From: a virus
Taxonomy: Duplodnaviria > Heunggongvirae > Uroviricota > Caudoviricetes
IMG/VR virus record: IMGVR_UViG_2778261064_000025
Length of the DNA: 18,722 bases
Reading direction: 5' to 3' (one strand)
Part shown: positions 1,742 through 18,722 of the stretch, piece after piece
Layout of the letters: each line of letters opens with the position of its first letter
Numbering within the stretch: position 1 is the first letter of the stretch
The notes under the pieces: generated by a model
What the model saw: the letters and a program-made list of their open reading frames with translations, nothing else
Database searches by the model: none
What the model was told of the DNA's origin: nothing
Position numbers and translations under genes: made by a program

Positions 1742-2764
1742 TCAATCGCTCCCTTTCCGCCCTTCAGCTACAGGGTCGTTGTCGGCGATAACAAAACCTA
1801 AGTCCTGAGAGAATCTCTCTCGTGGGAATCCTTTAGCAGGTAAACCCATTGAATCATATCCACATCCGGGAACATTTGGTTTAGAGTCAATAAGGTCTGC
1901 AATTTGCCGAAGCCATGTTGATCCCGGACCAAGTCGTTTAACTAAGTACCAGATAATACAGATCGCGCTAAAAATCCTCTCGCAACTCTCTGGATGGAGA
2001 TTAAGTCCGTCAAAGTATTCATTATCCGGTACTGGAACTCGGGGATGCTTTCTATTCCATATTCTGGAATGGTGAGCGCAACGATTCCTTATGAGATTAA
2101 GGCACTTCAACCATTTTGCAAATGTCTGCTTATTATCAATGCCAAAACGACGTATAATTTTCCCCTGCATATGACCATTAAGCATCGCATAATATTTAGA
2201 CATCTGACCAAAATCCCAGGTCTCCACCGCCACCCAAAATGGAATCTCCTTGCCTTGGCTTCGATGCCATTCAATACAGTCATCTCTGCTTTCGTCTAAT
2301 TTTACTTTTTGCTTATACACCCAATGCTCGAAGGCAGATGAGAATTTTGGATTAATGTATTTTGATGACATGTAGGCAAGTGGATCATTGCGACCAACCT
2401 CATGCGCGATGACTGAACGAACATGAATCTCTATTCTTTCGATAGCATCAATCATCAAAAGACGCAGTTTTTTGTCAAAAAGATATAGATCGTACGTCTT
2501 CTCGAAACTGGTACCAGCAAGAAATCGGTCTGTTCTGTACGAAAGACCTTTATCTGTTGTCGCAATAATTCTTGATGGGTACCAAAAACCTGACAATCGA
2601 TAATATCCAACCTGCAACAGCTTACGTATCGCACGATTTCGATCATTGATAATCATGCCACGTTCAAGTAGCAATCCTAGCAATTCGTGATAGTCCTTAT
2701 GAGGCTTTGCGGCAATCATAGTGGCAAAACAAAAGATAATAAAAGGCCCGACCGTGAAACTCAC
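1742..2764 (-). CDS. Abi_2 family (AbiD/AbiF-like) abortive-infection protein; start uncertain (GTG at 2764 or ATG at 2719)
   Basis: ORF track 340 aa. Contains KPHKDYHELLGLLLERGMII...YYRLSGFWYP and RNRCAHHSRIWNR, matching the Abi_2 family signature as I recall it. Size fits AbiD/F proteins. Confidence 0.7.
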   Translation of the reverse strand: MSFTVGPFIIFCFATMIAAKPHKDYHELLGLLLERGMIINDRNRAIRKLLQVGYYRLSGFWYPSRIIATTDKGLSYRTDRFLAGTSFEKTYDLYLFDKKLRLLMIDAIERIEIHVRSVIAHEVGRNDPLAYMSSKYINPKFSSAFEHWVYKQKVKLDESRDDCIEWHRSQGKEIPFWVAVETWDFGQMSKYYAMLNGHMQGKIIRRFGIDNKQTFAKWLKCLNLIRNRCAHHSRIWNRKHPRVPVPDNEYFDGLNLHPESCERIFSAICIIWYLVKRLGPGSTWLRQIADLIDSKPNVPGCGYDSMGLPAKGFPRERFSQDLGFVIADNDPVAEGRKGSD

Positions 2765-6329: not shown

Positions 6330-7750
6330 TAATCACCCCATAGTGAAGAAAAGTTACTGCTGGCTGCTGGCTGTGATACCTGCTCAGATTGCGGCAATGT
6401 CTGCGACGAAGAAGAAGTTCCTCTGTCAACTGCTGAAATAACCCGCAAAGCATCATAAGCTCGACCAGAAGCAGCTTTCAGCGAATTGAACTGGTTTTCC
6501 ATCTTCCGGCGCTTGGTATCAATGGTTTTTGTGGAATCACCAGGCTGAGGGAAATACATTTGATAATATTTGGACATTTCAGCTGGTACGATGGCTGCCC
6601 CTGTTTCCTGACGGAGTATTGCCATTATTGCGTCATTAGCATTAACAACGTATTGCTGTTCTGTTGGGCTGAGCGTTAAGTTAGCCAGCGTCCCATTACC
6701 CAAAGCATTATTAATGATCGCCACTCGCTGTGGGCTAAGCTGGTCTTTCAGTGTATCTATTGAATCAAGAGCATCCCTAACCCTGTATGCAAATCCAGCA
6801 GCTTTTTTAGCCCCTTCTGGCGACTTTTCCATGATCTTTTGGGCTGTTGGCAAAGCTATTGGACGAAACCCATCTCCAGATATTGGCTGGTTTAGTTTTC
6901 CCTGCTCTTCACTTCCGTCTGTGTAGTATTTTGTGACAGTGCCATCATCGTTTTCTCTAACACTCATTAATTTTTTGGCGTTTGTATTAATTCCAGCCGC
7001 TGCCGCAAATGCCGCCGCCCCCTCTGGATCCGCCTTTAACATTTGAGCGTACTGATTGTAATTCTGCATTGCTGCTGTTGGTGCATATGCTGACGTTAAC
7101 GCATTTGCTCGGCTAATATCCTGCCCTCTCGCCTGAAGTGCTTCGCCAGCCTGATTGCTGCGGATTGTTTCTGCCAACTTGCCACGCTCAATATCCCGAC
7201 CTTCCATTTGATCTTTGATATCGAAATACTTCTCATGACCGAGAGAAAACAGTGCCATACTACCAGCAAGCCGCTGGAACCCCTGTGGATCATTAACATG
7301 CATTTCGGCAACAGACTCAGGAGAAATTCCCAAGCGACGCATTTCATCTTCGTTATCTGCTATGAATTTTCCAAATGCCCCAGTTCCGAGCGAAGATGCG
7401 ATTTGAGCACTAGTCGCAAGATGACCAATAGAATTTCTCTGGTCGTCATCAATAAAGCCCATCCCTTTCTGAACGCTTTCAAATTCTTCTGGATACTCAG
7501 AAATAAGACTGCGCATTTTGTTTCTGTCTCCAGACTCAAAAGCCCCGGCATATGCTTTCTGAAACTCTGCTTTACGCTGTTGTTGACGTGCCGGCTGATT
7601 AATCTCAGCAACGCCTCTTAGCCCCTGTAGCGCCATTAAACCTACGTTTGGCTGCTGCTGATACTGCACAGGCTGAGGAACGGAAGAACGAGGAGCATTA
7701 TCATTTTGCGGTGCCATGCTAGGCAGCCCGCCAAGTTGCCATGTCGCCAT
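6329..7750 (-). CDS. Putative DNA-ejection protein, P22 gp20-like by size and position (473 aa)
   Basis: ORF track. TAATG start/stop overlaps at both ends. 473 aa compared with ~471 aa for P22 gp20 as I recall it. Gln-rich N-terminus. Confidence 0.5.
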   Translation of the reverse strand: MATWQLGGLPSMAPQNDNAPRSSVPQPVQYQQQPNVGLMALQGLRGVAEINQPARQQQRKAEFQKAYAGAFESGDRNKMRSLISEYPEEFESVQKGMGFIDDDQRNSIGHLATSAQIASSLGTGAFGKFIADNEDEMRRLGISPESVAEMHVNDPQGFQRLAGSMALFSLGHEKYFDIKDQMEGRDIERGKLAETIRSNQAGEALQARGQDISRANALTSAYAPTAAMQNYNQYAQMLKADPEGAAAFAAAAGINTNAKKLMSVRENDDGTVTKYYTDGSEEQGKLNQPISGDGFRPIALPTAQKIMEKSPEGAKKAAGFAYRVRDALDSIDTLKDQLSPQRVAIINNALGNGTLANLTLSPTEQQYVVNANDAIMAILRQETGAAIVPAEMSKYYQMYFPQPGDSTKTIDTKRRKMENQFNSLKAASGRAYDALRVISAVDRGTSSSSQTLPQSEQVSQPAASSNFSSLWGD

Positions 7751-8427
7751 TAGAATCCAAGCCCCCCAACAAGACCAATAAGCCCACCACCAATAGCGCC
7801 GGCCGCAGTTCCTATTCCAGGAACAACGGAACCAAGTTGCGCACCCGCTAAAGCGCCTGATGCTGCCCCACCAATACCACGCGCAAGACTGGATGGCTGC
7901 TGCGCCTGACCTGCACGAATAGCGCCAAGCCCCTGCAAGAGTTGTCCGGTATTATTGGCGTAGTTTTGCCCTGCCGTTGCCTGCCCTGATGCCGCATTCA
8001 TCCCGACATTTAGCAGGTTTCCATAATTTTGCATTTGCCCACTAAGCCAATTGTTATAAAGCATGGGCGCAATGGAAGATAACTGGTTACTGGTAGCTGT
8101 TGAGCCAAGCCCCCCGGTAGCTTCTGCTGAGACAAGGTTCTGATAACGGGCCTGATCTGCCTGTGTTTTATATAAACCAGAACCAAAGAAATCATTCGCG
8201 GCTTTATTCTGCCCTTCCAGAGTCATCAGTCCTTGTAGTTGTTGTAAAGCAGGCAATCCGACTTCTGCATACGGCTTGAGATTATTCATCACCGTATTCC
8301 ACTGCTCGCGCTGCAAATCAATTGCCTGCTGCTGGGCCTTCGCCTGAGCTTTAGAGGCACCACCATCACCGCCTTTTTCGTATACGGCACGATTGAGATG
8401 TTTATGAGCTATATGGGTAATTAACAT
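7750..8427 (-). CDS. Putative DNA-ejection protein, P22 gp7-like (225 aa)
   Basis: ORF track. N-terminal ...NRAVYEKGGDGGASKAQAKAQ resembles the P22 gp7 leader region (...PEKGGKGG...) as I recall it. C-terminal Gly-rich hydrophobic tail GIGTAAGAIGGGLIGLVGGLGF. 225 aa compared with 229 aa for gp7. Confidence 0.55.
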   Translation of the reverse strand: MLITHIAHKHLNRAVYEKGGDGGASKAQAKAQQQAIDLQREQWNTVMNNLKPYAEVGLPALQQLQGLMTLEGQNKAANDFFGSGLYKTQADQARYQNLVSAEATGGLGSTATSNQLSSIAPMLYNNWLSGQMQNYGNLLNVGMNAASGQATAGQNYANNTGQLLQGLGAIRAGQAQQPSSLARGIGGAASGALAGAQLGSVVPGIGTAAGAIGGGLIGLVGGLGF

Positions 8428-8882
8428 TCGCTGAATTCCTTATATTGTTGCCGAGTTAACTGATAAAGCGTTACGCCGACGGGTTTACCACATCTGATAT
8501 AAGCATCATCAAGGTGACCAACACGGGTAGCGCCAAGCAAACGGATAATTGCCCGTCCGTATTTCGTGGTGTCAGGAACCATAGTGATGCTGTTAAGGAA
8601 TGGTGAGTTTTCGAGAAGCCATTTGCAGAATAATCGATGTCCTTGCAGTGCATATTCACCACGGAATCCGGGGTCGTACACCGCATGGCATTCAACAACG
8701 CTATGCCAGAAGTTACGCACTTCATGAACGCCAGCCAGCACTAATCCTTCGTAGATGCCGAGATATACCGCATCAGGCTTGATGTAGTACGTGTGCCCCG
8801 GCTCAACAATATTTTCGGTATTGCCTGGCTCGTTAAGAAAGGCCTGTAATCGCACAGGGTTATCAATAAATTTTAGTTCCAT
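8421..8882 (-). CDS. Hypothetical protein (153 aa), position and size consistent with P22 gp14-like / DUF2824-type protein
   Basis: ORF track. First large gene of the operon; its stop overlaps the start of the next gene (ATGTTAA). Family assignment is from memory only. Confidence 0.45.
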   Translation of the reverse strand: MELKFIDNPVRLQAFLNEPGNTENIVEPGHTYYIKPDAVYLGIYEGLVLAGVHEVRNFWHSVVECHAVYDPGFRGEYALQGHRLFCKWLLENSPFLNSITMVPDTTKYGRAIIRLLGATRVGHLDDAYIRCGKPVGVTLYQLTRQQYKEFSEC

Positions 8883-9187: not shown

Positions 9188-9508
9188 TCGTTCTGTGTGT
9201 CAGGTTTTGACAGGTTTTTTATGGACTCTAAAAACTATATTTATGGTGTCGCATTACTCTTCACGGCAGGCGCTTTTCAGTTCTGCCCTTGCTTCTGGCT
9301 CCATTGGTAATTTGATTCGCGATCAGCTATGCGGATGGTTTGCTGAACAGGCATAACAACTTCTCAGAGGCTGTTTTCTGAACTACGAAAATTTCGTAGT
9401 GCTCACTTTCAAAAACGTCACGCCCTTGTACACAGGATTTTACGAAAGTCTCGTAAAACACTCTCTGATGCCAGCCAGGTGTTGTGCGCATCAATTCAGT
9501 CACATTGT

Positions 9509-9619
9509 GTTGGTTCAAAATACCGTGTTGTTGGTTCAGTGTTGGTTCAATAAAAAGAATAAAATCCTTATAAAACAATACTCTTTACAAATTGAACCAA
9601 CTGAACCAACTGAACCAAC
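9509..9619. repeat. Iteron array R: GTTGGTTCA at 9509, 9530, 9541 plus TGAACCAAC x3 in tandem (9593-9619); mirror image of array L
   Basis: Counted directly in the sequence. Immediately downstream of the primase-helicase stop (9645). Confidence 0.75.
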
Positions 9620-9644
9620 ACCTTTTCTACGCACATGAAGAAGC

Positions 9645-12404
9645 TCATTCTTCAGATGAGTTATAATCTCCTGGCTGGTAATTGAGTACATAAACGTTTA
9701 TTTGTCGTCCCTGAATACGTGGTGATTTTCTTTGGTATCCACGACCGCTGTTTGGTGGGGTTAGCATCCCGGCTTTTTTCAACACTTCAGCAAACTGTTT
9801 TGCGTTGAAACCACATGCGATCTCCTTTTCAAATGTGGCCGGGAATGTGTAGAAAATCATTGGGCTTTCGTCATGTTCTCCACGCTGACGGTATCCGGCT
9901 AAATCTTTGATGGGCAAATCTGCCGGGCTGTATGGAAATGGTGCAAAACGGCTAAGCCCATAGGCATTAAGAAATGCCTCCGTTTGTTCAATAATCTGCT
10001 GATGCTCTTTGTTACCTGTGCCGAACTCGCGCAACCATGCGTTATAGCTGTGCTGTATCGCATCACGGCATGTCTGAGCATCCCAGCCTGTTACAACCTC
10101 GCCTAACAACAATGCGGCCTCCAGAATGGCAAATCGCGCGGCTACACGGTGAACCTGCTCACCATAATCGGATGGGATCAGGCTTCTCCATCTGCTTTCG
10201 CAGTCGCGAACGGTTTTAATAGCCTGTTGCTGGTGGTCTGCCAGCCATTTAATCCACTCACGCCCGGACGCGCCGTGGTGATGCTGGTAAGCGTCTTTCA
10301 GTGCGTCTGCGTGCTGTTTTCCGTTCTGGTAATCGTGAAAGCGTACTGCTTTACTCAACGGAATATTCAGCAGTCGCACCAGTTGCCCGGCTTTGGTTTT
10401 TCGCCCGGAAGTAGCGATAAATGTTTCTAAATCCATTTCTCCGGTGCTGATTGCCACTGTACGCCAGCGTTTTAGATCCCGGTTTCCACCATCTTTAGCG
10501 CCTTGCAGTTTCCCTACACCGTTAAATAACGCATAGGCAGACTGTGAAACGCTGACAGGATCAGCGCCCTGACCAACTTCATCAAGCGGCATTAGTCCGT
10601 CATTGTGGGCGGCGGCCTCATTTGCCAGCCCCAGCGCGGTTCCGTACCACGTCAGCCGCAGTAAATCAGGGTTGCCGTATAAGCTGCTCGCCACGTTTGC
10701 CGTGGTGGTCTTACCTGCGCTCGACTGCTCATAGAAATGAATGCCGAACCCGTCAGCGCCCACCAGCCCAATCAATGGCGCTGCCAGTGCTGCGCCGATC
10801 CCGGTCATCATTGAATAGTTACCAAAGGCCAGACGCGCCACGTTATCACGCCAGCTTTTCGCGCTCCCTGAGACGGTATATCCGGCTGCGGCTGAGCTTC
10901 TCCCGCTGAACAGCACAGGATTTTCAGGTGTTCCGATGATTTCCCCATCAGGCATGATGTACGCTCCGCATTGCCAGCCAGTGGCATGAGCAACACGCCA
11001 CAATTCACGAGAGCCACTGCGTTGTAGCCAGTCTGCCAGTATTGCTCTGAGGCTGCTTTTGGTCGTGACATTTACCCCACCAGCTTTAAGTGTGCGCCAT
11101 CCTTCACGTTCACCAATATCAGCCAGTGGAATGGCAGCGGTTGTCGGCGTTTCAGAACCAAACGACAGCCAGCGAAGAATGAGATACTGGTCTTTATCGT
11201 CTCTGCCAGTACCGATAACGCTTAACGGAGAACATAACCAGCTTTCGTTATTGATGATTTCTCCACTCTGGCTGTCAGCTCTCGGAGATACCCAATAAAT
11301 ACCATCCTCGCGGCTTTCTATTCTTGGTTTCAGTGGGTCGGTATCCATAACCTTAAAATCGCTTCCCTCAATGGTCTGTGGCTCCTGTTTCACGCCATTA
11401 CCCTGTGGTTGGTACATTGACTTATTGAACGCTTCTGTGGCGCATTTAATGCCGTGTTTTTGGTGGTAATCATTCCAGTCTGCTTTGTGATCTGTCGGGG
11501 GTAATGCCACCCATCCAGAAACAGATAAAGCTGCTTTTTCTGCTGCTATTCTCCCCGTGTTTTGTCTTCCTTCGCTGTGGTCGTTATCCGCAGCAATGAT
11601 GATTTGTGCTGAAGGAAATTTATCCCGCAGTACCTGGGCGACATATAACAGGTTCCCGGCATCAATCGCCGCCACTGTCAGCGCCTCTGGACGAATTAAA
11701 TGGGCAGATAATGCCGTTGCCAGCCCTTCTGCGATTAAGATGCTCTGTGTTGTTTCTGGTGCGTTTATGGCGTGATATGCCCCCCGCTTTGCTGAACCTG
11801 TCAGGAGTCTTTTTTCACCATGTGAGGTAATAGTCTGTGCTGCTGTGACTGCGCCGGATTTATCCACCAGCGCCAGCAACAGAGATCCATCGGGCAACAC
11901 GGGGAATGTAAAATCACCTACCCCTTTCGCAACCAGATAATCAGATTTGCCGTTTACAGCCTTTCTGCGCATGTCATCAAACTGACGGGAAAACGTATCC
12001 CGTCTTTGTTGTTCGTCCTTCTCTGCCCTTTTCAGGCGCTCCTGTTCGCGTCGCTGGCGCTCGGTTTCCAGTTGTTCCCGTTTCTGGCTGGTGGCTTCTG
12101 GTGTTTCCGTTGTCCGGTAATCAATACCCAGAACATCAGCGGCAAGAAGCGCCGCCTCTGTTGTGTCGCAGTTATTTACGCGTTTAATTAAATCCAGCCC
12201 ATCACCAGCGCCGCACTGATTACAGATGAAGCTACCGCGCCCGTTGTCATCGAACCGGAATCGATCTTTGCCCCCACATGCAGGGCAGGGAGCATGACGG
12301 CGCGGAGAGTCAGGGACATTTATGTTCAGGCAGCCCAGCACATGAGGCCAGTTGTTTTCAGACGCACTGATAACCTGACGGATAAGATCAATGTTTCGCA
12401 TCAC
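9645..12404 (-). CDS. Primase-helicase, P4 alpha-like (zinc-binding primase N-terminus + TOPRIM + P-loop NTPase), 919 aa
   Basis: ORF track. N-terminal CPACGG...FICNQCGAG zinc-finger pairs, TOPRIM-like ILIAEGLATALS ... IIIAADNDHSEG, Walker-A-like SSAGKTT in the C-terminal half. Domain order typical of P4 alpha / D5-type island primases. Confidence 0.85.
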   Translation of the reverse strand: MMRNIDLIRQVISASENNWPHVLGCLNINVPDSPRRHAPCPACGGKDRFRFDDNGRGSFICNQCGAGDGLDLIKRVNNCDTTEAALLAADVLGIDYRTTETPEATSQKREQLETERQRREQERLKRAEKDEQQRRDTFSRQFDDMRRKAVNGKSDYLVAKGVGDFTFPVLPDGSLLLALVDKSGAVTAAQTITSHGEKRLLTGSAKRGAYHAINAPETTQSILIAEGLATALSAHLIRPEALTVAAIDAGNLLYVAQVLRDKFPSAQIIIAADNDHSEGRQNTGRIAAEKAALSVSGWVALPPTDHKADWNDYHQKHGIKCATEAFNKSMYQPQGNGVKQEPQTIEGSDFKVMDTDPLKPRIESREDGIYWVSPRADSQSGEIINNESWLCSPLSVIGTGRDDKDQYLILRWLSFGSETPTTAAIPLADIGEREGWRTLKAGGVNVTTKSSLRAILADWLQRSGSRELWRVAHATGWQCGAYIMPDGEIIGTPENPVLFSGRSSAAAGYTVSGSAKSWRDNVARLAFGNYSMMTGIGAALAAPLIGLVGADGFGIHFYEQSSAGKTTTANVASSLYGNPDLLRLTWYGTALGLANEAAAHNDGLMPLDEVGQGADPVSVSQSAYALFNGVGKLQGAKDGGNRDLKRWRTVAISTGEMDLETFIATSGRKTKAGQLVRLLNIPLSKAVRFHDYQNGKQHADALKDAYQHHHGASGREWIKWLADHQQQAIKTVRDCESRWRSLIPSDYGEQVHRVAARFAILEAALLLGEVVTGWDAQTCRDAIQHSYNAWLREFGTGNKEHQQIIEQTEAFLNAYGLSRFAPFPYSPADLPIKDLAGYRQRGEHDESPMIFYTFPATFEKEIACGFNAKQFAEVLKKAGMLTPPNSGRGYQRKSPRIQGRQINVYVLNYQPGDYNSSEE

Positions 12405-12759
12405 CGTACCCCACGTGGTCTATAGCGTTTGCGATATGGCTAACCAGCATCTGCCACTTGGTTATTCCGTAATCAGTCAGCATGCCATCATTGTTTAGCC
12501 ACATATCAAATTCAGCGGTTGTCGCAAGTTTCCACTTATCGCCGTGGACAGTCCTCATTGCTGGGTACATGAATGCGCAAATCAGATCACAAACATCTGA
12601 CGGCTTCAGAGATGTAGTAATGGTGCGTCCCTCTGGCGTCTGAATTGCCATTTTCTCTTCACCAGTAGAATGAAGGTTATGAATCCACACAGCACCAGCA
12701 ATCTTTGCCACCTGCTCTCCGATTGCGGAGCTAAGCGCCATTTCTGCATTTTCACGCAT
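12388..12759 (-). CDS. Hypothetical protein (123 aa)
   Basis: ORF track. ATG at 12757-12759 preceded by GGGAGG. 8-nt overlap with the upstream gene's stop; its own stop overlaps the primase start. Confidence 0.55.
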   Translation of the reverse strand: MRENAEMALSSAIGEQVAKIAGAVWIHNLHSTGEEKMAIQTPEGRTITTSLKPSDVCDLICAFMYPAMRTVHGDKWKLATTAEFDMWLNNDGMLTDYGITKWQMLVSHIANAIDHVGYGDAKH

Positions 12760-13093
12760 GAGAACCTCCCGCTACAGTTGCGCCCATGTCATTAACCATG
12801 CTTTGCCATATCTCACGCCCGACGTCAGTCAATCCGTCCTTAGTGACGCAACGCTCAAGAAGCTCGATCCCCACGGTTTCCCACTGCGGGTAGAACACTT
12901 TCATGGCTGCCAGTGTGTAGCTATCGATCAGGCTGCGAACGCCTTTTACTCCATTGACGATTTCCACACGTACGGCCTCGCCGTCCGCATCAACCATGAA
13001 ATAGTCCCCGCCGCTGGTGGAGGTAATGTGGTTATACAGTGCCGACGCATACTTATTTGCCAGCGCATTCAGTCGGAAATTTTTAGTAATCAT
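12752..13093 (-). CDS. Hypothetical protein (113 aa)
   Basis: ORF track. ATG at 13091-13093 with an upstream GAGG/GGAG; packed in the overlapping small-gene operon. Confidence 0.55.
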   Translation of the reverse strand: MITKNFRLNALANKYASALYNHITSTSGGDYFMVDADGEAVRVEIVNGVKGVRSLIDSYTLAAMKVFYPQWETVGIELLERCVTKDGLTDVGREIWQSMVNDMGATVAGGSHA

Positions 13094-13103
13094 GGCTCCA
13101 TCC

Positions 13104-13706
13104 TCAGTGCGTCACTGGTTCCGCTGGCATGCCGTTTTCATTCAGTTCAGCTATAAAGCTGTTGTGAAGTTCAGCAAGCGTTTCACGACCAAATGGAGTC
13201 AGTGCTCCTTGTTCCACATCCATCATGGCTCTGTAGAAAATGATGGCGCGTTCTGTGCCAGACTCGATGCCAAAACGTTCTATCATCGCGCCCTCAATGT
13301 TGTTTGCCATAGCGAGGCGCTCTGCTACTGGATACAGCGGCATGGCGACGATGCCGTTGGAATAAACAGCCACTTCGGAAGGATTGCCAGTATCATCAAT
13401 GATGCTGACAGTGCCGTTTTCCTCTCTCATTTCCAGCATGAATACTGTTGCGATCAGCCATCTCCACATAATGACGTTATGCTGTGATGTGTAATCGAAA
13501 TATCCCTGGTTGCCGCCATCGGCTATAGCGAGATGTATTGACATGCCTTCATCTGGTTTATCGTCATAATCCCCGGCATCCAGACGATTTACGGCATCAA
13601 TATATGAGACGGTCTCAACGCGTTCTGTCATGCCATCGTTGCTGCGGTGCATGATGTTTACGCCGTCAGGCGTTGCTTCTGCATGGAAAGTTAAGAAATT
13701 ATTCAT
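13104..13706 (-). CDS. Hypothetical protein (~200 aa from ATG 13704-13706; ORF track extends to 13811)
   Basis: The internal ATG at 13704-13706 is preceded by AGGCGAGG and overlaps the upstream gene's stop by 8 nt, matching the coupling pattern of its neighbours. The longer 235-aa reading is possible. Confidence 0.5.
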   Translation of the reverse strand: MNNFLTFHAEATPDGVNIMHRSNDGMTERVETVSYIDAVNRLDAGDYDDKPDEGMSIHLAIADGGNQGYFDYTSQHNVIMWRWLIATVFMLEMREENGTVSIIDDTGNPSEVAVYSNGIVAMPLYPVAERLAMANNIEGAMIERFGIESGTERAIIFYRAMMDVEQGALTPFGRETLAELHNSFIAELNENGMPAEPVTH

Positions 13707-13920
13707 GTTTCGCCTCGCCTGAATGATTCTGTAACTCATATTTGCCCAACAATTCGTCTGCTTCCTGAATAGCTTCTGGTACGCCATTGAGCAGTGACAT
13801 AACCGCGCCAATCATTAACTTGTCTCTGTTGCTGGGGCTGGCCCCTTCAAGCCAGAACCCTAAAACAGTCTGAACCTGTTCGATGCGACATTGCGCTTCA
13901 ATGAGCTGGATGTTGGTCAT
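13699..13920 (-). CDS. Hypothetical small protein (73 aa)
   Basis: ORF track. ATGA start/stop overlap with the upstream gene at 13917-13920. Confidence 0.5.
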   Translation of the reverse strand: MTNIQLIEAQCRIEQVQTVLGFWLEGASPSNRDKLMIGAVMSLLNGVPEAIQEADELLGKYELQNHSGEAKHE

Positions 13921-14180
13921 TTCGCACTCTCCGCATCGATTAAACTGATATCTATCAGAGAGGTAACTTTTTGTAGCCAGCTAGTGATTACTGTCGCCTG
14001 TTCCCCTCCCACCGATGGAAGAATCTCATTCATCACATGAACCAGACCTGTGCGCGCTCTGGTAAGCCGTTCAGTCGTGCGATCTGCAAGAGTGAATGTG
14101 TCTGGATATGGCTCTTCACGGCTCAGCAATGATTCAATTTCCAGCTCACACGGATGACGATAAATTAAGTTGATATTCAT
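13917..14180 (-). CDS. Hypothetical small protein (87 aa)
   Basis: ORF track. ATG at 14178-14180 preceded by GGGGG; ATGA overlap with the upstream gene. Confidence 0.55.
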   Translation of the reverse strand: MNINLIYRHPCELEIESLLSREEPYPDTFTLADRTTERLTRARTGLVHVMNEILPSVGGEQATVITSWLQKVTSLIDISLIDAESAK

Positions 14181-14371
14181 TTTTCACCCCCAAGAATTAC
14201 CAGCTCTGCACGGGCATCGTTAACCAAAGATGAGTACGCTTTAATCGCATCCACGACATCAGTAGCGTCCATTTCTTCAGCCGAAAGACTGACAGCAACC
14301 AGGACAGCCGCTGCTTGCTCGATTAATTGAAGTGCGGACGTAAGGCGAGGGGTATTAATTGAGTTATTCAT
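14177..14371 (-). CDS. Hypothetical small protein (64 aa)
   Basis: ORF track. ATG at 14369-14371 preceded by GGGGG; 8-nt overlap with the upstream ORF's stop. Confidence 0.55.
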   Translation of the reverse strand: MNNSINTPRLTSALQLIEQAAAVLVAVSLSAEEMDATDVVDAIKAYSSLVNDARAELVILGGEK

Positions 14372-15431
14372 TGGTTTCCCCCGTTTTTACTGGCATTTCG
14401 CCACCTTCCAGCAGGAAATGAACGTCACGAACGGCGAGATCCAATATCGCGAGTAACGCCTTCAGTCTTTCGTCTCGTGAGGGAGAGTTGCTCACCAGAA
14501 TGTCGTTAATCACTTCTGTCAGTGTGATGATCTGGCTTGTGCGTTCGAGGGGATCCATATGCACATCGTAGGTTTTAATCATGTGCCACCTCCATGCGGA
14601 TACGACCAGCAAAAAAGCAGACGTGATCGCGCACCAGAGAACGGCGAGCATCGCGTTCAGACTCGGCAGCAATATGATGAATTTTGGCGGTAATTGTCGG
14701 GCAATCGCGGCGAACTGCGGCGATAATCCAGATAAATTGCGGTTTTTGGGTAGGGGTAGTAGCCAGCATGTGGCAGCCTCCATTCGATAGCATGTAACGC
14801 TACCACCGGAAACGCCAATTTCGCTGGTGGTAGCCCAGACAGGGTTGGCGTAACCGGCTCGAATGGATACCGGCGCTTCCGAAGAAGCCCCTGCCTGAGC
14901 CACCATTGATTGACAAAGGCGCTGGATTATACACCAACGCCCAAAAAATGGGTGAGTCAGACCTACGACATAAAAAAAGACGCTCGGCGCGTCATATGTC
15001 GCCATTCGATTTACCAGGACGCCAATCCCGGCACCCGTTTTATGAGGTGCCTTATAACCATAAACCGTGTTGCCGCATAACGGCAAGCTCTTTTTTATGG
15101 ACTCCGAAAACTCACTATTGGAAGAACCAGAAGCACAGTACATCGCGCTCATTTCGTTAACGTCACGCGCGTGGACGAAGGTTTTTGTGGAGTCACTACG
15201 CGAGCAGAGAAAGCCATCTACGACCAGAAATTCTCTGGCGCAGCCGCTGACCTTCTCAACGCTAACACCATCGACCGTAATTTCTGACATAGTTAAGGCA
15301 TCCGCTCCTACCACCAGCAAATGATAAACTTTGCTTGTATCTGCTGTATTAATGCCTGACTTTGCTGTCATATTGCTGGATTTTGGCGACATACCAGCCA
15401 GTGAAAATGTCTTCTTCTGGGCGGTTAGCAT
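14364..15431 (-). CDS. Long ORF (355 codons), hypothetical; may instead be two genes, with a separate 72-aa product starting at ATG 14580-14582
   Basis: Continuous stop-free frame of 1068 nt. Start at 15429-15431 preceded by GGAGG and overlapping the DUF4222-like stop (ATGCTAA). A second in-frame ATG at 14580-14582 has its own GGAGG 6-7 nt upstream. The middle section translates to unconvincing sequence. Confidence 0.35.
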
Positions 15432-15607
15432 TTGTTAACCTCCGCGAACTCCTTCATGAAACGTGCCAGCGGTTGTACGCATGGCGATTGATACCCGTCG
15501 CGATAAAACGTCACTCGGTTGTGAGACACGCTTTCGACAGTAACGAGTGCTCCGTGGGCATCTTTGTAGCGTTTTTGAGGTTGTGGTGTTCCTGTCGGCT
15601 TAAACAT
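15425..15607 (-). CDS. Small conserved prophage protein, DUF4222-like (60 aa from ATG 15605-15607; ORF track extends to 15694)
   Basis: ATG at 15605-15607 immediately follows the upstream stop (15600-15602) and is preceded by GGAGG. Sequence MFKPTGTPQPQKRYKDAHGALVTVESVSHNRVTFYRDGYQSPCVQPLARF fits my recollection of the DUF4222 pattern. Confidence 0.5.
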   Translation of the reverse strand: MFKPTGTPQPQKRYKDAHGALVTVESVSHNRVTFYRDGYQSPCVQPLARFMKEFAEVNKC

Positions 15608-16433
15608 GGACCGCCTCCAGACGCTTAGCGAGCCAGCGTTGCGACAGGCGGGTGAGTTCTCCTTTGCGCTGCTCATATTCCATGCCCATATCAATTAACG
15701 TGATATTGGTGCTTTCGAGATATGAGAGGTGCTCAAGCTGTTCTGCGTTCATATGGTCGCGAGGTTCGCCAGAATAGCCATTTATCCGCGCCCACTGCTT
15801 AGCAGTTAGCCCACCAAGAACGATACGAGAAATCATATTGATCTCGTTTGTGTAGTGGTGTTGCTGCGTCGTTTTCCCCATCTCGGCACGGGCCATATTC
15901 AGCGCATCGCACATTGGCTTAAAGTTGTTTGCGGCACTGATACGGGCTTTTAGCTGGCGACGATAGCGGGCGGCGATTTCAGGCACGCTACGCTGTAATT
16001 CTTCCTCGCACTGGATGAAATAACGGCGGATAGCGCGCCCCTGATCATTGCGTTCGATCATTGCCAGTTCTTTCGCCATTCCGACACTTAACAGATAGTC
16101 TTTGCCGGGTCTTCCAGACTGCTTAATCTTGCTGTAAGCCGCGCCATTCGGGATTTTCCCCAAATTTGGGGAAATAGTTTTATGGACTGAGTAATCGTGC
16201 CCAATGGTGAAGTCATATTCAGAGATGCGATCAGTGATCCATGTAGAGAAGTCTTTTCCCACGCCCAACGCTTTGTGTAACGCTTTTGCGCTAACAATAT
16301 TGGTTTCACGCCCACCGATATGACCAGGAATAACCGGGACAATTGCGGCAAATTCATTACCGTTAATTGTGCCCAGAGAGGCGTTCAGATGAGGGGCAGC
16401 CTCAGAAATTAATCTGCTTTTTTCGATGTTCAT
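15600..16433 (-). CDS. Phage antirepressor-like protein (AntA/AntB-type domain), 277 aa
   Basis: ORF track. Segments NIVSAKALHKALGVGKDFSTWITDRISEYDF and DYLLSVGMAKELAMIERNDQGRAIRRYFIQCEEEL match antirepressor AntA/KilA-type domains as I recall them. Confidence 0.6.
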   Translation of the reverse strand: MNIEKSRLISEAAPHLNASLGTINGNEFAAIVPVIPGHIGGRETNIVSAKALHKALGVGKDFSTWITDRISEYDFTIGHDYSVHKTISPNLGKIPNGAAYSKIKQSGRPGKDYLLSVGMAKELAMIERNDQGRAIRRYFIQCEEELQRSVPEIAARYRRQLKARISAANNFKPMCDALNMARAEMGKTTQQHHYTNEINMISRIVLGGLTAKQWARINGYSGEPRDHMNAEQLEHLSYLESTNITLIDMGMEYEQRKGELTRLSQRWLAKRLEAVHV

Positions 16434-16445
16434 TTTCAGTCTCCG

Positions 16446-16877
16446 TTAGGCGGCGTTAAACGCGTCCGGGTAGAGTTTCAGAATGTCGGCAATTTCCTGC
16501 TGAGAAAGTCCGTTGTGATCATTTATGTTCGCAAGATGGTTAATATGAGTGATCACTTTCAGAACATCACCACGGCAGGAGAAACGGTAGCGAAGGTGTG
16601 TTCCGATACCATCAGGATTCTTTTCGTCGATACGCTCCAGAGTGATTCCGAGCTGGCGTTCTAACTCTGTTGCATAGTTACGACCAGAAGACAGACGGCA
16701 GTAGCGAAGAATGTCATTTTCTGTCCATCCCTCTATACCAGTACGCAGCATATAGACTCGGGCACGATGCTTTTTCGGCGTGCGCTTTGGTGCTTGAAGG
16801 GATTTTGTCAGGGGCGTAACATCAGATACGCGAATATCTGAATTAGCCGCCTGTAATGGGCGGTTTTTCTTTTCCAT
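16446..16877 (-). CDS. Hypothetical protein (143 aa), basic N-terminus
   Basis: ORF track. Start overlaps the AlpA stop by 1 nt (coupled). No family recognised. Confidence 0.55.
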   Translation of the reverse strand: MEKKNRPLQAANSDIRVSDVTPLTKSLQAPKRTPKKHRARVYMLRTGIEGWTENDILRYCRLSSGRNYATELERQLGITLERIDEKNPDGIGTHLRYRFSCRGDVLKVITHINHLANINDHNGLSQQEIADILKLYPDAFNAA

Positions 16878-17080
16878 CAGGCCACCTCGTCTCTAGATTC
16901 TAATATACACTTCTCAATCCATTCATCTATTTCAGACTCAACAAAAGCAATTGCCCGACTTCCAATTTTTACCTGTTTAGGGAACCTCCCCTGACTAATA
17001 AGACGATAAATCCATGCTTTGCTATAACCAGTTCGCCTTTGAACTTCAGAGAGACGAATTAATGAATTGTAATTAGCCAT
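16877..17080 (-). CDS. alpA: AlpA-family phage transcriptional regulator / excisionase-like DNA-binding protein (67 aa)
   Basis: ORF track. Pattern ...RTGYSKAWIYRLISQGRFPKQVKIGSRAIAFVESEIDEWI matches the AlpA/Xis-type HTH family. Sits one gene away from the P4-type integrase, as is typical. Confidence 0.8.
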   Translation of the reverse strand: MANYNSLIRLSEVQRRTGYSKAWIYRLISQGRFPKQVKIGSRAIAFVESEIDEWIEKCILESRDEVA

Positions 17081-17507: not shown

Positions 17508-18722
17508 TCATGCGTGTTTTTCAAACACCATATGCACCACATTTCCGCCATGCTCGAGAGAATCCATATAGTCGGCATACCATTGAAGCATCTCCCGCCG
17601 TCCATCCAGATATTGCGCATGGTTGTATGTGCCACGAATTGAGTTCTTATCAACGTGAGCGAGCTGCGTTTCTATCCACGCGGTGTTATAGCCCTGCTCA
17701 TGCAAAATCGTGCTCATAGTGTGTCGGAACCCATGACCAGTTACACGTCCAGCGTAGCCAATGCGCTTAAACACTTGGTTTATGCTGGCCTCACTCATTG
17801 TTTTCCTTGGATCATTGCGCCCGGGAAACATAAGAGGGTAATTGCCTGTTATTTCTCTAATCTTCCCAATAAGCGAAAGAGCCTGCTCAGACAATGGCAC
17901 AATATGAGGCCGCCGCATTTTCATACGTGAAGCGGGTATCTCCCATATAGCCTTGTTGAAATCAATTTCATCCCATAATGCGCCACGTAGTTCGCCAGTT
18001 CGCAAGCCGGTGATAATCAGTAGACGAGCCGCCATAACAACCAATGCGCTTCCTGAGTAACTGGATAATGCCTTGAAAAAATCAGGTAATTCTTTGGTCG
18101 TAAGGAAAGGGTAATGATTAGATTCATGGCCTTGCATCGCGCTAGTAAGGTCTGGTGCAGGGTTATACTCTGCGCGACCAGTGACTATTGCATAGCGGAA
18201 AACTTCCCCGCACCGCTGCCTCACTTTTTTGGCTTTTTCTGTCGCACCGCGCCCCTCGATGCGCCGCAGCACATTCAGAAGTTCAAGTGGTTTGATTTCG
18301 GCGATTGGTTTTTTGCCAATGTAAGGGAACACATCTTTGTTGAAGGCTTCGAGGATGTCTGAAGCATAACCAGCAGACCATTTTTTTAATTTGCTGCTGT
18401 GCCACTCAAGGGCAATATCTTTGAAGGTGTTGTTTAACTGCGTTTCCCGGGCAATCTTTTCCTCTCGTTTCGCTTCCATCGGATCGATACCACCAGCGAT
18501 ACCTCTTTTCGCATCTTCACGTTTTGCCCGAGCATCGGCTAGAGTAACCTCAGGATACACACCTAGTGCCAATAGCTTCTCTTTACCAGCTACACGATAT
18601 TTAAGTCGCCAGTATTTACCTCCATTAGGTTTTACCAAGAGATACAAACCGCCACCATCGGCCAGCTTGTAAGCCTTCTCTTTTGGCTTGGCTGTGTCTA
18701 TTTGACGGGCATTGAGTTTCAC
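17508..18722 (-). CDS. P4-family tyrosine integrase; 5' end at or just beyond the window edge
   Basis: ORF track 404 aa. N-terminal KLNARQIDTAKPKEKAYKLADGGGLYLLVKPNGGKYWRLKYR is the classic P4-type integrase N-terminus. C-terminal HGFRHTMSTIL...LAH...Y catalytic motifs. The apparent start is a GTG at the very last codon of the window. Confidence 0.9.
   Translation of the reverse strand: MKLNARQIDTAKPKEKAYKLADGGGLYLLVKPNGGKYWRLKYRVAGKEKLLALGVYPEVTLADARAKREDAKRGIAGGIDPMEAKREEKIARETQLNNTFKDIALEWHSSKLKKWSAGYASDILEAFNKDVFPYIGKKPIAEIKPLELLNVLRRIEGRGATEKAKKVRQRCGEVFRYAIVTGRAEYNPAPDLTSAMQGHESNHYPFLTTKELPDFFKALSSYSGSALVVMAARLLIITGLRTGELRGALWDEIDFNKAIWEIPASRMKMRRPHIVPLSEQALSLIGKIREITGNYPLMFPGRNDPRKTMSEASINQVFKRIGYAGRVTGHGFRHTMSTILHEQGYNTAWIETQLAHVDKNSIRGTYNHAQYLDGRREMLQWYADYMDSLEHGGNVVHMVFEKHA

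What the first reader, a model, noticed from the sequence alone, without database searches (positions are those of the whole stretch)
12388..14582. Operon of seven tightly overlapping small ORFs of unknown function upstream of the primase
Seven consecutive minus-strand ORFs (64-200 aa) have ATGA or 8-nt start/stop overlaps and good Shine-Dalgarno sequences, which strongly supports real, translationally coupled genes. None matches a family I recognise. In satellites and islands this position commonly holds helper-interference, anti-defence or regulatory genes.
Basis: seen in the sequence. Interest (0 to 1): 0.45.

Follow-up and report, generated by a model that had tools for sequence, protein, structure and literature searches.

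The report
Satellite early operon of small genes
The seven small overlapping ORFs are real genes in the RNA-switched early operon of an E. coli phage satellite (an EcCIMP1-type PICI); what their small acidic proteins do is untested, and the best lead is that the conserved pair works with antirepressor-type regulators.

Summary
Seven consecutive minus-strand ORFs (72, 64, 87, 73, 200, 113 and 123 aa) are joined by 4- or 8-nt start/stop overlaps, except one 10-nt gap between o3 and o2. The chain continues upstream into an Icd/Kil-like gene and downstream into the primase gene.

All seven are under purifying selection and recur in other Enterobacterales. The element is an EcCIMP1-type Gram-negative PICI.

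It holds a P4/P1-type RNA immunity switch: an isrK-like site, a C4 RNA, and a target on the icd ribosome-binding site. The C4 loop and its two targets covary across five related islands. ORF 7 is nested in frame at the end of the 355-aa "ash family" ORF.

None of the seven matches Pfam, NCBIfam, PADLOC or PDB. All are acidic.
- o3-o2 is the conserved core pair (42 of 55 loci). It sits beside ORF6N, Rha or Bro-N antirepressor-type genes in prophages.
- o1 is a rare paralogue of o2. It is modelled as a three-helix bundle with a beta-hairpin, not ubiquitin-like.
- o4 belongs to a varied set of ~65-aa helical cassettes.
- o5 and o7 have no detectable relatives outside their own small families; o6 links only weakly to the o4 set.

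Function remains inferred. This is a new member of a known kind, of moderate interest.

The parts
16877..17080 (-). alpA (AlpA-family regulator), first gene of the co-directional alpA-to-primase gene string
   Evidence: Pfam Phage_AlpA 7e-20. Its stop overlaps the next start by 1 nt.
15600..16433 (-). AntA-domain antirepressor-type (Bro-network) gene
   Evidence: Pfam AntA 1e-21. 8-nt overlap with the DUF4222 gene.
15425..15607 (-). DUF4222 gene
   Evidence: Pfam DUF4222 6e-25. Its stop overlaps the start of the long Ash ORF by 7 nt.
14364..15431 (-). Long 'ash family' ORF (355 codons). It reads across the isrK and C4 RNA genes, crosses icd out of frame, and ends in frame with o7. Proposed analogue of P4 eta.
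   Evidence: Pfam Phage_ASH 3e-30 over aa 124-232, which is the RNA-gene region. GGAGG lies 7 nt before its ATG. The same layout is seen in L005, L009, L012, L014 and L020.
14973..15050 (-). isrK-like RNA element (counterpart of P4 seqA) ending in a hairpin plus U7 terminator (14979-14993)
   Evidence: Rfam RF01394 67.1 bits against a gathering score of 50. Terminator scan. Carries the C4 target TCGAATGG at 15002-15009.
14823..14910 (-). C4/CI-type immunity RNA. The loop of its second hairpin (UCCAUUCGA) is the antisense element.
   Evidence: Rfam RF01695 79.5 bits against a gathering score of 45. The loop is complementary to the sites at 14780-14787 and 15002-15009. Loop and targets covary in related islands.
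14779..14787 (-). C4 target site overlapping the Shine-Dalgarno sequence of icd (UCGAAUGGAgg, ending 10 nt before the ATG)
14575..14769 (-). icd/kil-like gene (64 aa), first gene translated after the immunity RNA
   Evidence: NCBIfam phage_ICD_like 5e-20. 43% identical to the C-terminal 65 aa of the P4 ORF annotated 'cI', which is the Kil region.
14364..14582 (-). o7 (72 aa, pI 4.7). Has its own GGAGG and ATG overlapping the icd stop, and is also the in-frame 3' end of the Ash ORF.
   Evidence: Orthologues in L014, L020 and L022 at 39-48% identity; dN/dS 0.19 (L020) and 0.39 (L022), dS saturated for L014.
14177..14371 (-). o6 (64 aa, pI 4.2), a rare cassette
   Evidence: Found in only 2 of the 55 related loci. 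dN/dS 0.22 against L018. Weak profile link to the o4 group (E 1.4e-3).
13917..14180 (-). o5 (87 aa, pI 4.9), a family with no detectable relatives
   Evidence: In 9 of 55 loci. dN/dS 0.29 against L018, but 0.58-0.75 among close E. coli variants. RefSeq sometimes names it 'nicotinic acetylcholine receptor subunit beta'.
13699..13920 (-). o4 (73 aa, pI 4.7), member of a varied set of ~65-aa ORFs that look two-helical from sequence (no structure was predicted) and form tandem arrays in these operons
   Evidence: phrog_20558 3e-9. In 14 of 55 loci. Profile links to other small-ORF clusters at 83%, 38% and 32% probability.
13104..13706 (-). o3 (200 aa, pI 4.35), upstream member of the conserved o3-o2 pair. 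N-terminal beta-rich part plus a C-terminal domain that also occurs as a stand-alone 94-123-aa protein.
   Evidence: phrog_1515 1e-47. 550 homologues. Lies next to o2 in 42 of 55 loci. Present in phage early-left operons. The stand-alone form matches the C-terminal domain at E 8e-8. The AF2 model is poor, pLDDT 54.
12752..13093 (-). o2 (113 aa, pI 5.2), downstream member of the core pair. In most related islands it is the gene directly before the primase gene.
   Evidence: phrog_37628 1e-49. 130 homologues. 55 loci, 33 of them followed by a primase gene. Lies beside ORF6N, Rha or Bro-N genes and is fused to ORF6N in P0291.
12388..12759 (-). o1 (123 aa, pI 5.6), a lineage-restricted paralogue of o2 inserted between o2 and the primase gene
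   Evidence: Only 21 homologues. hhalign against the o2 family: 86.7% probability, E 4e-6, full length. Reciprocal HMM hits. AF2 pLDDT 89.4.
9645..12401 (-). Primase gene (Zn-ribbon + Toprim + DUF927), last gene of the coupled chain
   Evidence: Pfam. 14-nt overlap with o1.

Best explanation
The seven ORFs are real, translationally coupled early genes of an EcCIMP1-type Gram-negative PICI, a phage satellite. They lie between a P4/P1-type RNA-immunity leader and the primase gene, inside one co-directional gene string running from alpA to the primase gene.

When they are made (partly shown, partly inferred). In the resting island, the loop of the C4 RNA pairs with a site in the isrK-like leader and with a site covering the icd ribosome-binding site. 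Each gene start overlaps the previous stop from icd through o3 and again from o2 to the primase gene; the one exception is the 10-nt o3/o2 gap, where o2 has its own SD-like motif. Blocking icd translation is therefore expected to silence the whole chain by loss of coupling and by polarity.

When a helper phage switches on alpA, ribosomes arriving from upstream translate the long Ash ORF. That ORF runs across the RNA genes and icd and ends at the o7 stop, which overlaps the o6 start. This would bypass the block, as eta does in P4.

What the products are. They are small acidic proteins (pI 4.2-5.6), so they are unlikely to bind DNA. They come from the mosaic pool of accessory genes that satellites share with the early-left operons of temperate phages.
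- The conserved core is the o3-o2 pair; o1 is a duplicate of o2.
- o4 to o7 are exchangeable cassettes.

What they do (inference, about one chance in three). o3 and o2 act together as protein-binding partners of Bro-network antirepressor-type regulators (ORF6N, Rha, Bro-N, AntA). They would act on helper or host proteins, as epsilon does at the same position in P4.
For: Shown:
- ORF structure, overlaps and Shine-Dalgarno motifs.
- Purifying selection and orthologues across genera.
- C4 and isrK hits above the Rfam gathering scores.
- The icd gene is homologous to P4 Kil.
- TCGAATGG occurs only three times in the window: in the C4 loop (as its complement), in isrK, and on the icd SD.
- The C4 loop covaries with the icd-SD site in six loci, using four different loop sequences, and with the isrK site in five loci.
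- No terminator-like site lies on the minus strand between 14582 and 12388.
- The Ash ORF has its own SD, overlaps the DUF4222 stop, and in six loci reads through icd to the end of the next gene.
- The element has AlpA, AntA, a primase and P22-type ejection-protein genes. It matches EcCIMP1, which was shown by experiment to need alpA and to be mobilised by the P22-like phage Kapi1 (PMC11773190). It also fits the four-zone PICI plan, in which C4 and isrK hit the Bro zone (PMC10111431).

For the functional lead:
- o3 and o2 are adjacent in 42 of 55 loci.
- In prophages and phages they sit directly beside ORF6N, Rha or Bro-N genes.
- One ORF6N + o2-like fusion and one o3 + o2 fusion exist.
- All seven proteins are acidic, while the upstream regulators are basic.
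Against: - No experiment or expression data bear on any of the seven genes. The EcCIMP1 paper does not characterise them.
- The bypass by Ash-ORF translation is transferred from P4 (summarised in PMC10111431, plus my own knowledge of Forti et al. 1999). It is not demonstrated here.
- The open alternative frame across icd has a 10-26% chance per sequence, and the loci are related by descent.
- C4 and isrK were detected in only 5 of 12 related islands scanned, so the array does not depend on this switch.
- The fusions may be read-through or frameshift artefacts. Clearly degenerate deletion fusions exist in the same databases.
- Bro-network genes are common in these regions anyway, so adjacency is weak evidence.
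Confidence: 0.55

Rival explanations
1. The small acidic proteins are anti-defence or host-takeover factors, for example inhibitors of restriction, RecBCD or other host immunity. They would be made early to protect the replicating satellite and helper DNA, as Ral, Gam, Abc and Ocr do in phage early operons.
For: - All seven are small and acidic (pI 4.2-5.6).
- They sit in the early operon and have homologues in the early-left operons of temperate phages.
- The cassettes are swapped between islands, as expected for genes in an arms race.
- o5 shows dN/dS of 0.58-0.75 among close variants.
Against: - No similarity to any known anti-defence protein or to PADLOC models. No PDB or BFVD match.
- o3 in the plasmid collection occurs only on non-mobilisable 20-40-kb circles, not in conjugative leading regions.
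- The o3-o2 pair is strongly conserved (dN/dS 0.1-0.25), not fast-evolving.
Confidence: 0.2
2. o2 and o1 (perhaps with o3) are replication accessory factors for the primase-helicase, for example loaders or origin-recognition partners. That would explain why they are translationally coupled to it.
For: - The o2 stop overlaps the primase start in most islands; a primase gene follows o2 in 33 of 55 loci.
- o1 overlaps the primase start by 14 nt.
- Iterons lie just after the primase gene.
Against: - o3 and o2 also occur in prophages and phages with no such primase, just before xis/int.
- The EcCIMP1-like island in strain M10 lacks o1 and o2 altogether, and its primase gene follows o3 directly.
- The same array occurs with three different primase types: DUF927, DUF5906 and P4-family.
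- Acidic proteins are poor candidates for origin binding.
Confidence: 0.1
3. The proteins interfere with the helper phage, redirecting capsid assembly, packaging or late gene expression, as Sid and Psu do in P4 or Ppi and Rpp do in other PICIs.
For: - Satellites commonly carry such genes.
- EcCIMP1 affects superinfection by its helper Kapi1 through genes that have not been identified (PMC11773190).
Against: - In known PICIs the interference genes lie downstream of the primase gene, in the 'Late zone' (PMC10111431). Here that zone holds P22-type ejection-protein genes.
- Homologues of o3 and o2 sit in ordinary temperate phages, which have no helper to interfere with.
- EcCIMP1 was reported not to restrict its helper.
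Confidence: 0.1
4. Some of the ORFs, especially o7, are not independent genes. They would be by-products of other constraints: o7 would simply be the tail of the Ash ORF, whose translation matters rather than its product.
For: - o7 is in frame with the 355-codon ORF in every C4/icd-bearing locus that has it.
- RefSeq never annotates o7 separately.
- The part of the Ash ORF that crosses icd translates to an implausible hydrophobic peptide.
Against: - o7 has its own GGAGG and an ATG overlapping the icd stop, conserved in L014 and L020.
- An o7 homologue occurs in L022, where neither icd nor C4 was detected.
- dN/dS is 0.19-0.39.
- The other six ORFs each have independent orthologues under purifying selection.
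Confidence: 0.05

Closest known systems
EcCIMP1, a PICI of E. coli MP1 mobilised by the P22-like phage Kapi1 (Pick et al., ISME J 2025, PMC11773190)
   Same: - Same backbone: integrase, alpA, antirepressor, 'Ash family' ORF, small hypothetical genes, DUF927 primase, DUF2824 and DNA-transfer (ejection) proteins, PerC.
- The island in mouse strain M10 sits at the same tRNA-Thr/proA site as EcCIMP1. It shares o3-o7, icd and C4 with the window at about 95% nucleotide identity.
   Different: - The window's island sits next to yicC, not at tRNA-Thr.
- It carries o1 and o2, which the M10 island lacks.
- It carries an Abi_2 gene.
- The paper does not mention the C4/isrK leader or characterise the small ORFs.
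Left (early) operon of satellite phage P4: PLE/PLL, seqA, CI RNA, seqC, eta/kil, epsilon, orf151, orf106, alpha
   Same: - Same order: AlpA-like gene, a long ORF over the immunity RNA, a Kil/Icd homologue (43% identity), a few small overlapping ORFs, then the primase gene.
- C4/CI-type RNA with two complementary target sites.
- P4 also uses 8-nt overlaps: cI-ORF/epsilon and epsilon/orf151.
   Different: - epsilon, orf151 and orf106 show no detectable similarity to o1-o7.
- The nested short gene in frame with the long ORF is o7 here, not Kil/Icd.
- There are no sid, delta or psu genes.
- The primase is a DUF927 type.
Phage P1/P7 immI region (c4 RNA, icd, ant)
   Same: A C4 antisense RNA targets the ribosome-binding site of icd, and the genes downstream depend on icd translation. 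That rests on established knowledge of P1. Here the C4 target ends inside the icd SD.
   Different: - Downstream of icd in P1 is the antirepressor gene ant. Here it is seven unrelated small genes and a primase gene.
- The Ant-type gene lies upstream of the RNA instead.
Bro network of domain-shuffling phage regulators (Bro-N, KilA-N, ORF6N, Rha, AntA); the 'Bro zone' of Gram-negative PICIs (PMC10111431)
   Same: - The o2-type domain is found fused behind an ORF6N domain in P0291.
- o3 and o2 are direct neighbours of ORF6N, Rha or Bro-N genes in prophages and phages.
- The cassettes are exchanged in a mosaic fashion.
   Different: - o1, o2 and o3 carry no recognised Bro-network domain themselves.
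- They are acidic stand-alone proteins with no predicted DNA-binding domain.

Membership tests
Gram-negative PICI (EcCIMP1 type) | Tyrosine integrase followed, in the same orientation, by an AlpA-family regulator | tested here: met
   The integrase ORF at 17508-18722 is cut by the window end; the match in strain cq9 is annotated as a tyrosine recombinase. AlpA at 16877-17080, Pfam 7e-20.
Gram-negative PICI (EcCIMP1 type) | Bro zone, then a replication zone (primase), then a late zone with a few captured phage late genes but no complete structural or lysis module | tested here: met
   AntA, DUF4222, Ash ORF; Zn-ribbon/Toprim/DUF927 primase; DUF2824, P22 gp7, gp20-type translocase and a 701-aa ORF. 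Layout as described in PMC10111431.
Gram-negative PICI (EcCIMP1 type) | Flanking att repeats, and helper-dependent excision, replication and transfer | not testable with these tools
   The window ends inside the integrase gene. In strain cq9 a 12-nt direct repeat (ATTATGTACACC) flanks the island, but it is absent from the window. Induction was shown only for the relative EcCIMP1.
P4/P1-type RNA immunity (C4/CI RNA) | An RNA matching the C4 covariance model | tested here: met
   RF01695, 79.5 bits against a gathering score of 45, full length, at 14823-14910.
P4/P1-type RNA immunity (C4/CI RNA) | Target sites complementary to the RNA's loop, upstream (seqA-like) and at the start of the first translated gene (seqC or RBS) | tested here: met
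   An 8-nt site within isrK and a 9-nt site ending in the icd SD. Compensatory covariation with four loop variants across six loci.
P4/P1-type RNA immunity (C4/CI RNA) | An Icd/Kil-type first gene, and a longer ORF spanning the RNA gene (P4 eta) | tested here: met
   NCBIfam phage_ICD_like 5e-20. 43% identity to the P4 Kil region. The Ash ORF spans the RNAs, but here it is in frame with o7 rather than with icd.
P4/P1-type RNA immunity (C4/CI RNA) | Repression of the downstream genes by the RNA, through premature termination or a translation block | not testable with these tools
   Needs expression measurements.
P4-like satellite in the strict sense | The hallmark genes sid, delta and psu, and an epsilon homologue | tested here: not met
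   No similarity of o1-o7 to epsilon, orf151 or orf106. The late zone holds P22-type ejection-protein genes, with no Psu, Sid or Delta family among the late-zone ORFs scanned; sid, delta and psu were not searched for directly.
Ubiquitin-like (beta-grasp) proteins, considered for o1 | A beta-grasp fold: a mixed sheet wrapped round one helix | tested here: not met
Bro network (for o2, o1, o3) | Carries, or is fused or exchanged with, Bro-N, KilA-N, ORF6N, Rha or Ant modules | tested here: inconclusive
   One ORF6N + o2-like fusion (P0291; ORF6N 1e-13). Direct adjacency in at least 15 prophage or phage loci. But no Bro-network domain in o1-o3 themselves, and fusions can be artefacts.
Known anti-phage defence or anti-defence proteins | A match to a PADLOC model or to a solved anti-defence protein | tested here: not met
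   PADLOC gave only chance-level hits, E at least 0.016. PDB searches gave nothing.

The most novel reading that the evidence does not exclude
The o3-o2 pair, with its duplicate o1, is a new family of satellite- and phage-encoded antirepressor partners. In this reading a two-protein complex, sometimes fused to an ORF6N DNA-binding module, binds and inactivates the repressor or another early regulator of a resident helper prophage. It would be a functional analogue of P4 epsilon built on an unrelated three-helix-plus-hairpin fold. The exchangeable o4-o7 cassettes would then set helper or host specificity.
Probability: 0.25. Interest if true: 0.6.

Novelty: new member of a known kind. Interest (0 to 1): 0.35.

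Why it matters
The type of element and its RNA switch are already known, so the main result is a correct placement. This is the early, immunity-controlled operon of an EcCIMP1-type satellite carried by several per cent of E. coli genomes, including O26 STEC strains.

Three things make it useful:
- It gives a concrete, testable picture of how a PICI might combine AlpA activation with P4-type RNA immunity. Four natural loop/target variants are ready-made specificity mutants.
- It corrects public annotation. The 'ash family protein' CDS overlaps two RNA genes and hides both icd and o7. Names such as 'nicotinic acetylcholine receptor subunit beta' are spurious.
- It reduces seven unknowns to one conserved pair (o3-o2) with a clear lead, its association with antirepressor-type genes. 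That makes a small set of experiments worthwhile. These genes are candidates for how such satellites sense or manipulate their helpers.

Tried and rejected
- **Ubiquitin-like o1.** phmmer against PDB gave E 1e-15 to polyubiquitin. This is a repeat-summation artefact, with single ubiquitin at E about 1. The confident AF2 model is a helical bundle with one hairpin. Rejected.
- **o3 structure.** The AF2 model had pLDDT 54 from a shallow alignment and was not used for fold search.
- **o3 C-terminal domain homologous to o1/o2.** Three profile comparisons were colinear and share a G-x-LT-x-x-G motif and the same order of secondary structure. None is significant (probability 1.6-7%, E 0.005-0.03). 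Left open.
- **o4-o7 as four paralogues**, my first impression by eye. Only o4 links to other small-ORF clusters, o6 links weakly, and o5 and o7 do not link at all.
- **DUF5375 (P4 orf106) link to o3.** This was hinted by precomputed Pfam tags on three homologues but not reproduced. Dropped.
- **Other searches.** Pfam, NCBIfam and PADLOC on all seven gave nothing. PHROGs on ten neighbouring cassette families returned nine of unknown function and one PerC-like.
- **o4 in phage genomes.** No tblastn hit.
- **int-alpA RNA motif.** Present in related loci but not found in the window.
- **Forti et al. 1999 on P4 eta/kil.** The paper could not be retrieved.

Full report
**1. The observation**

The window carries, on the minus strand, seven consecutive ATG-initiated ORFs:
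- o7 14364-14582 (72 aa)
- o6 14177-14371 (64 aa)
- o5 13917-14180 (87 aa)
- o4 13699-13920 (73 aa)
- o3 13104-13706 (200 aa)
- o2 12752-13093 (113 aa)
- o1 12388-12759 (123 aa)

The junctions are 8, 4, 4 and 8 nt of overlap, then a 10-nt gap between o3 and o2, then 8 nt of overlap. Every start has a Shine-Dalgarno-like motif 5-8 nt upstream. So the description is right apart from that one gap.

The stated limits are too narrow. An Icd-like gene (14575-14769) overlaps the o7 start by 8 nt, and o1 overlaps the primase start (12401) by 14 nt. Further upstream, alpA, a 143-aa ORF, an AntA gene, a DUF4222 gene and a 355-codon 'ash' ORF are joined in the same tight way.

**2. Are they genes?**

Yes.
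- 254 of 5426 complete E. coli genomes hold at least 80% of the array, and 561 hold part of it.
- Orthologues with intact frames exist in other genera. For o2-o7, dN/dS against them is 0.1-0.4 wherever dS is not saturated; for o1 the only diverged orthologue found was saturated, so no ratio could be computed.
- Only o5 looks relaxed among close variants (0.58-0.75), and that rests on few substitutions.

RefSeq calls o1-o6 hypothetical proteins. o7 is never annotated on its own.

**3. What the element is**

In strain cq9 the 12388-14582 array is 100% identical and lies in an island between yicC and dinD. The cargo end of that island differs from the window; the closest full-length match is 99.3%, in O26 STEC strains.

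Pfam gives AlpA, AntA, DUF4222, a Zn-ribbon/Toprim/DUF927 primase, then DUF2824, P22 gp7, a gp20-type translocase and an Abi_2 protein. This is the four-zone plan of Gram-negative PICIs (PMC10111431).

It is specifically the backbone of EcCIMP1. That island was shown by experiment to excise and transfer only with the P22-like helper Kapi1, and to need alpA (PMC11773190). The paper does not characterise the small ORFs.

**4.

Rfam finds an isrK-type element (14973-15050, 67 bits) and a C4 antisense RNA (14823-14910, 79.5 bits) just upstream of icd.
- The Icd-like protein is 43% identical to the Kil part of the old 'cI' ORF of P4.
- The Pfam 'Phage_ASH' match of the 355-aa ORF covers exactly the RNA-gene region.

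The octamer TCGAATGG occurs three times in the 18.7-kb window, all here:
- as its complement in the loop of the second C4 hairpin;
- inside isrK, just before a hairpin plus U7 terminator;
- directly on the icd Shine-Dalgarno sequence (TCGAATGGAGGctgccacATG).

In related islands the loop sequence differs (UCCAUUCGA, UCCGAUAAC, UCCGAUGAG, UCUAUGUC). The site on the icd SD changes to match each time. The isrK site follows too, with 7-8 pairs including G-U.

That compensatory pattern is strong evidence for a working P4/P1-type immunity switch with several specificities. No terminator-like site lies on this strand within the array.

**5. The nested ORF**

The long Ash ORF starts with its own GGAGG, overlapping the DUF4222 stop. 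It reads across the RNA genes, crosses icd in another frame, and ends at the o7 stop. So o7 is its in-frame tail.

Related islands fall into two layouts:
- In eight loci the long ORF is in frame with icd and stops with it, as eta and kil do in P4.
- In six loci, including the window, it is out of frame with icd and always continues 172-211 nt to the end of the next small gene.

Given each Icd protein sequence, the alternative frame would stay open by chance in 10-26% of synonymous recodings. This is suggestive, not proof, because the loci share ancestry.

By analogy with P4, translation of this ORF from an upstream, AlpA-dependent promoter would carry ribosomes past the C4 block into the coupled chain. 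P4 eta translation makes late transcription insensitive to immunity (summarised in PMC10111431, plus my own knowledge). This step is inferred.

**6. The proteins**

None matches Pfam, NCBIfam, PADLOC or PDB sequences. o2, o3 and o4 fall in PHROG families of unknown function. All seven are acidic (pI 4.2-5.6), whereas the upstream regulators are basic.

*o1 and o2*
- o1 is a narrow family of 21 proteins; o2 has 130.
- They are distant paralogues. hhalign gives 86.7% probability, E 4e-6, over the full length. The o1 HMM finds about 50 o2 proteins as essentially its only hits among 5557 local ORFs, and the reverse search also works.
- An exhaustive profile search of 1.84 billion representatives found only 62 clusters, so the family is rare.
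- AlphaFold2 models o1 confidently (pLDDT 89.4) as three long helices with one beta-hairpin.
- An initial resemblance to ubiquitin is an artefact.

*o3*
- It has 550 homologues.
- It also occurs in the early-left operons of temperate phages: phiP27, Stx phages and Klebsiella phages.
- Its C-terminal half exists as a stand-alone 94-123-aa protein.
- Its model is poor.
- A relationship of that half to o1/o2 is hinted by colinear weak alignments and a shared G-x-LT-x-x-G motif, but it is not significant.

**7. Conservation is uneven**

Across 55 loci found with the o2 profile in Enterobacterales:
- o3 sits directly before o2 in 42;
- a primase gene follows in 33;
- o4 is present in 14, o5 in 9, o7 in 4, o6 in 2 and o1 in 2.

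E. coli islands swap modules. The M10 (EcCIMP1-like) island has o7-o3 and then the primase gene, without o2 or o1. Other islands keep o2 with different small cassettes and different primase types. o4 links by profile to several other ~65-aa clusters that look helical from sequence and fill these arrays. o6 links weakly. o5 and o7 do not link.

**8. The functional lead**

In prophages and phages, o3 and o2 lie directly beside ORF6N, Rha or Bro-N genes, often with overlapping stops and starts.

One database protein is ORF6N followed by an o2-like domain. Another is a full o3 joined to a full o2. Degenerate deletion fusions also exist, so these fusions count only as hints.

Together with the acidic character and the position equivalent to P4 epsilon, the most likely role is that of protein-binding partners of antirepressor-type regulators, acting on helper or host proteins. 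I put this at about one in three.

The rivals:
- **Anti-defence.** Fits small acidic early proteins and cassette turnover, but nothing specific supports it.
- **Primase accessory factors.** Contradicted by prophage contexts and by islands that lack o1 and o2.
- **Helper interference.** Wrong zone, and homologues occur in ordinary phages.

**9. Verdict**

The finding is real and is now placed precisely. It belongs to a known kind of element with a known kind of switch, and the seven proteins remain uncharacterised. Interest is moderate. The value lies in the testable regulatory model, the annotation corrections, and the reduction of the problem to the o3-o2 pair.

Noticed in passing
window 14364-15431 (-): The RefSeq 'ash family protein' CDS (355 aa) overlaps two RNA genes (isrK-like and C4) and the Icd-like gene. 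The Pfam Phage_ASH match covers the RNA-gene region. Different RefSeq genomes annotate either this ORF or the Icd-like gene, and never o7.
   Followed up: yes
window 9507-9621: Six copies of a 9-10-nt iteron (GTTGGTTCA / TGAACCAAC), three direct and three inverted, lie in the ~760-nt non-coding stretch just 3' of the primase stop. This is a likely replication origin.
   Followed up: partly
window 4224-8882 (-): The satellite carries its own P22-type ejection-protein genes (DUF2824, gp7, gp20-type translocase, and a 701-aa ORF in the gp16 position). EcCIMP1, whose helper is a P22-like phage, has the same. Why a satellite needs its own ejection proteins is unexplained.
   Followed up: partly
window 1742-2764 (-): A 340-aa Abi_2-domain (abortive infection) protein lies in the cargo end of the island. 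Strain cq9 has different cargo in this region, including an ImmA/IrrE peptidase gene. This looks like a variable defence hotspot.
   Followed up: no
window 13917-14180 and related loci L007, L006: Spurious product names have propagated in RefSeq for these small ORFs: 'nicotinic acetylcholine receptor subunit beta' for o5-type genes and 'ubiquinol-cytochrome C reductase' for a 315-nt cassette. Phage records name o3 homologues '2-polyprenylphenol hydrolase'.
   Followed up: partly
L010, L015, L018, L019, L020, L022, L034, L041 (between int and alpA): The Rfam int-alpA RNA motif (RF02996) is present in eight of twelve related islands. It is not detectable between int and alpA in the window, even at E 0.1.
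   Followed up: partly
plasmid records CP031371.2 (21.8 kb) and NZ_CP033626.1 (22.9 kb), Klebsiella pneumoniae: Non-mobilisable 'plasmids' of 21-23 kb carry o3 homologues at 58-64% identity. They may be circular, excised satellites assembled as plasmids.
   Followed up: no
window 14796-14804 (-) and equivalents in L010-L020: A second complementarity covaries between loci. The 3' strand of the C4 closing stem (model positions 77-85) pairs with GGTGGTAGC about 20 nt upstream of the icd-SD target. It could be a second antisense contact or an alternative fold of the precursor.
   Followed up: no
proteins P0141, P0258, P0305, P0219 (database relatives): Natural deletion or frameshift variants fuse o2 to o1, the 143-aa ORF to o2, o3 to o2, and o2 to the primase N-terminus. 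These show that the islands decay by internal deletion in some genomes.
   Followed up: partly
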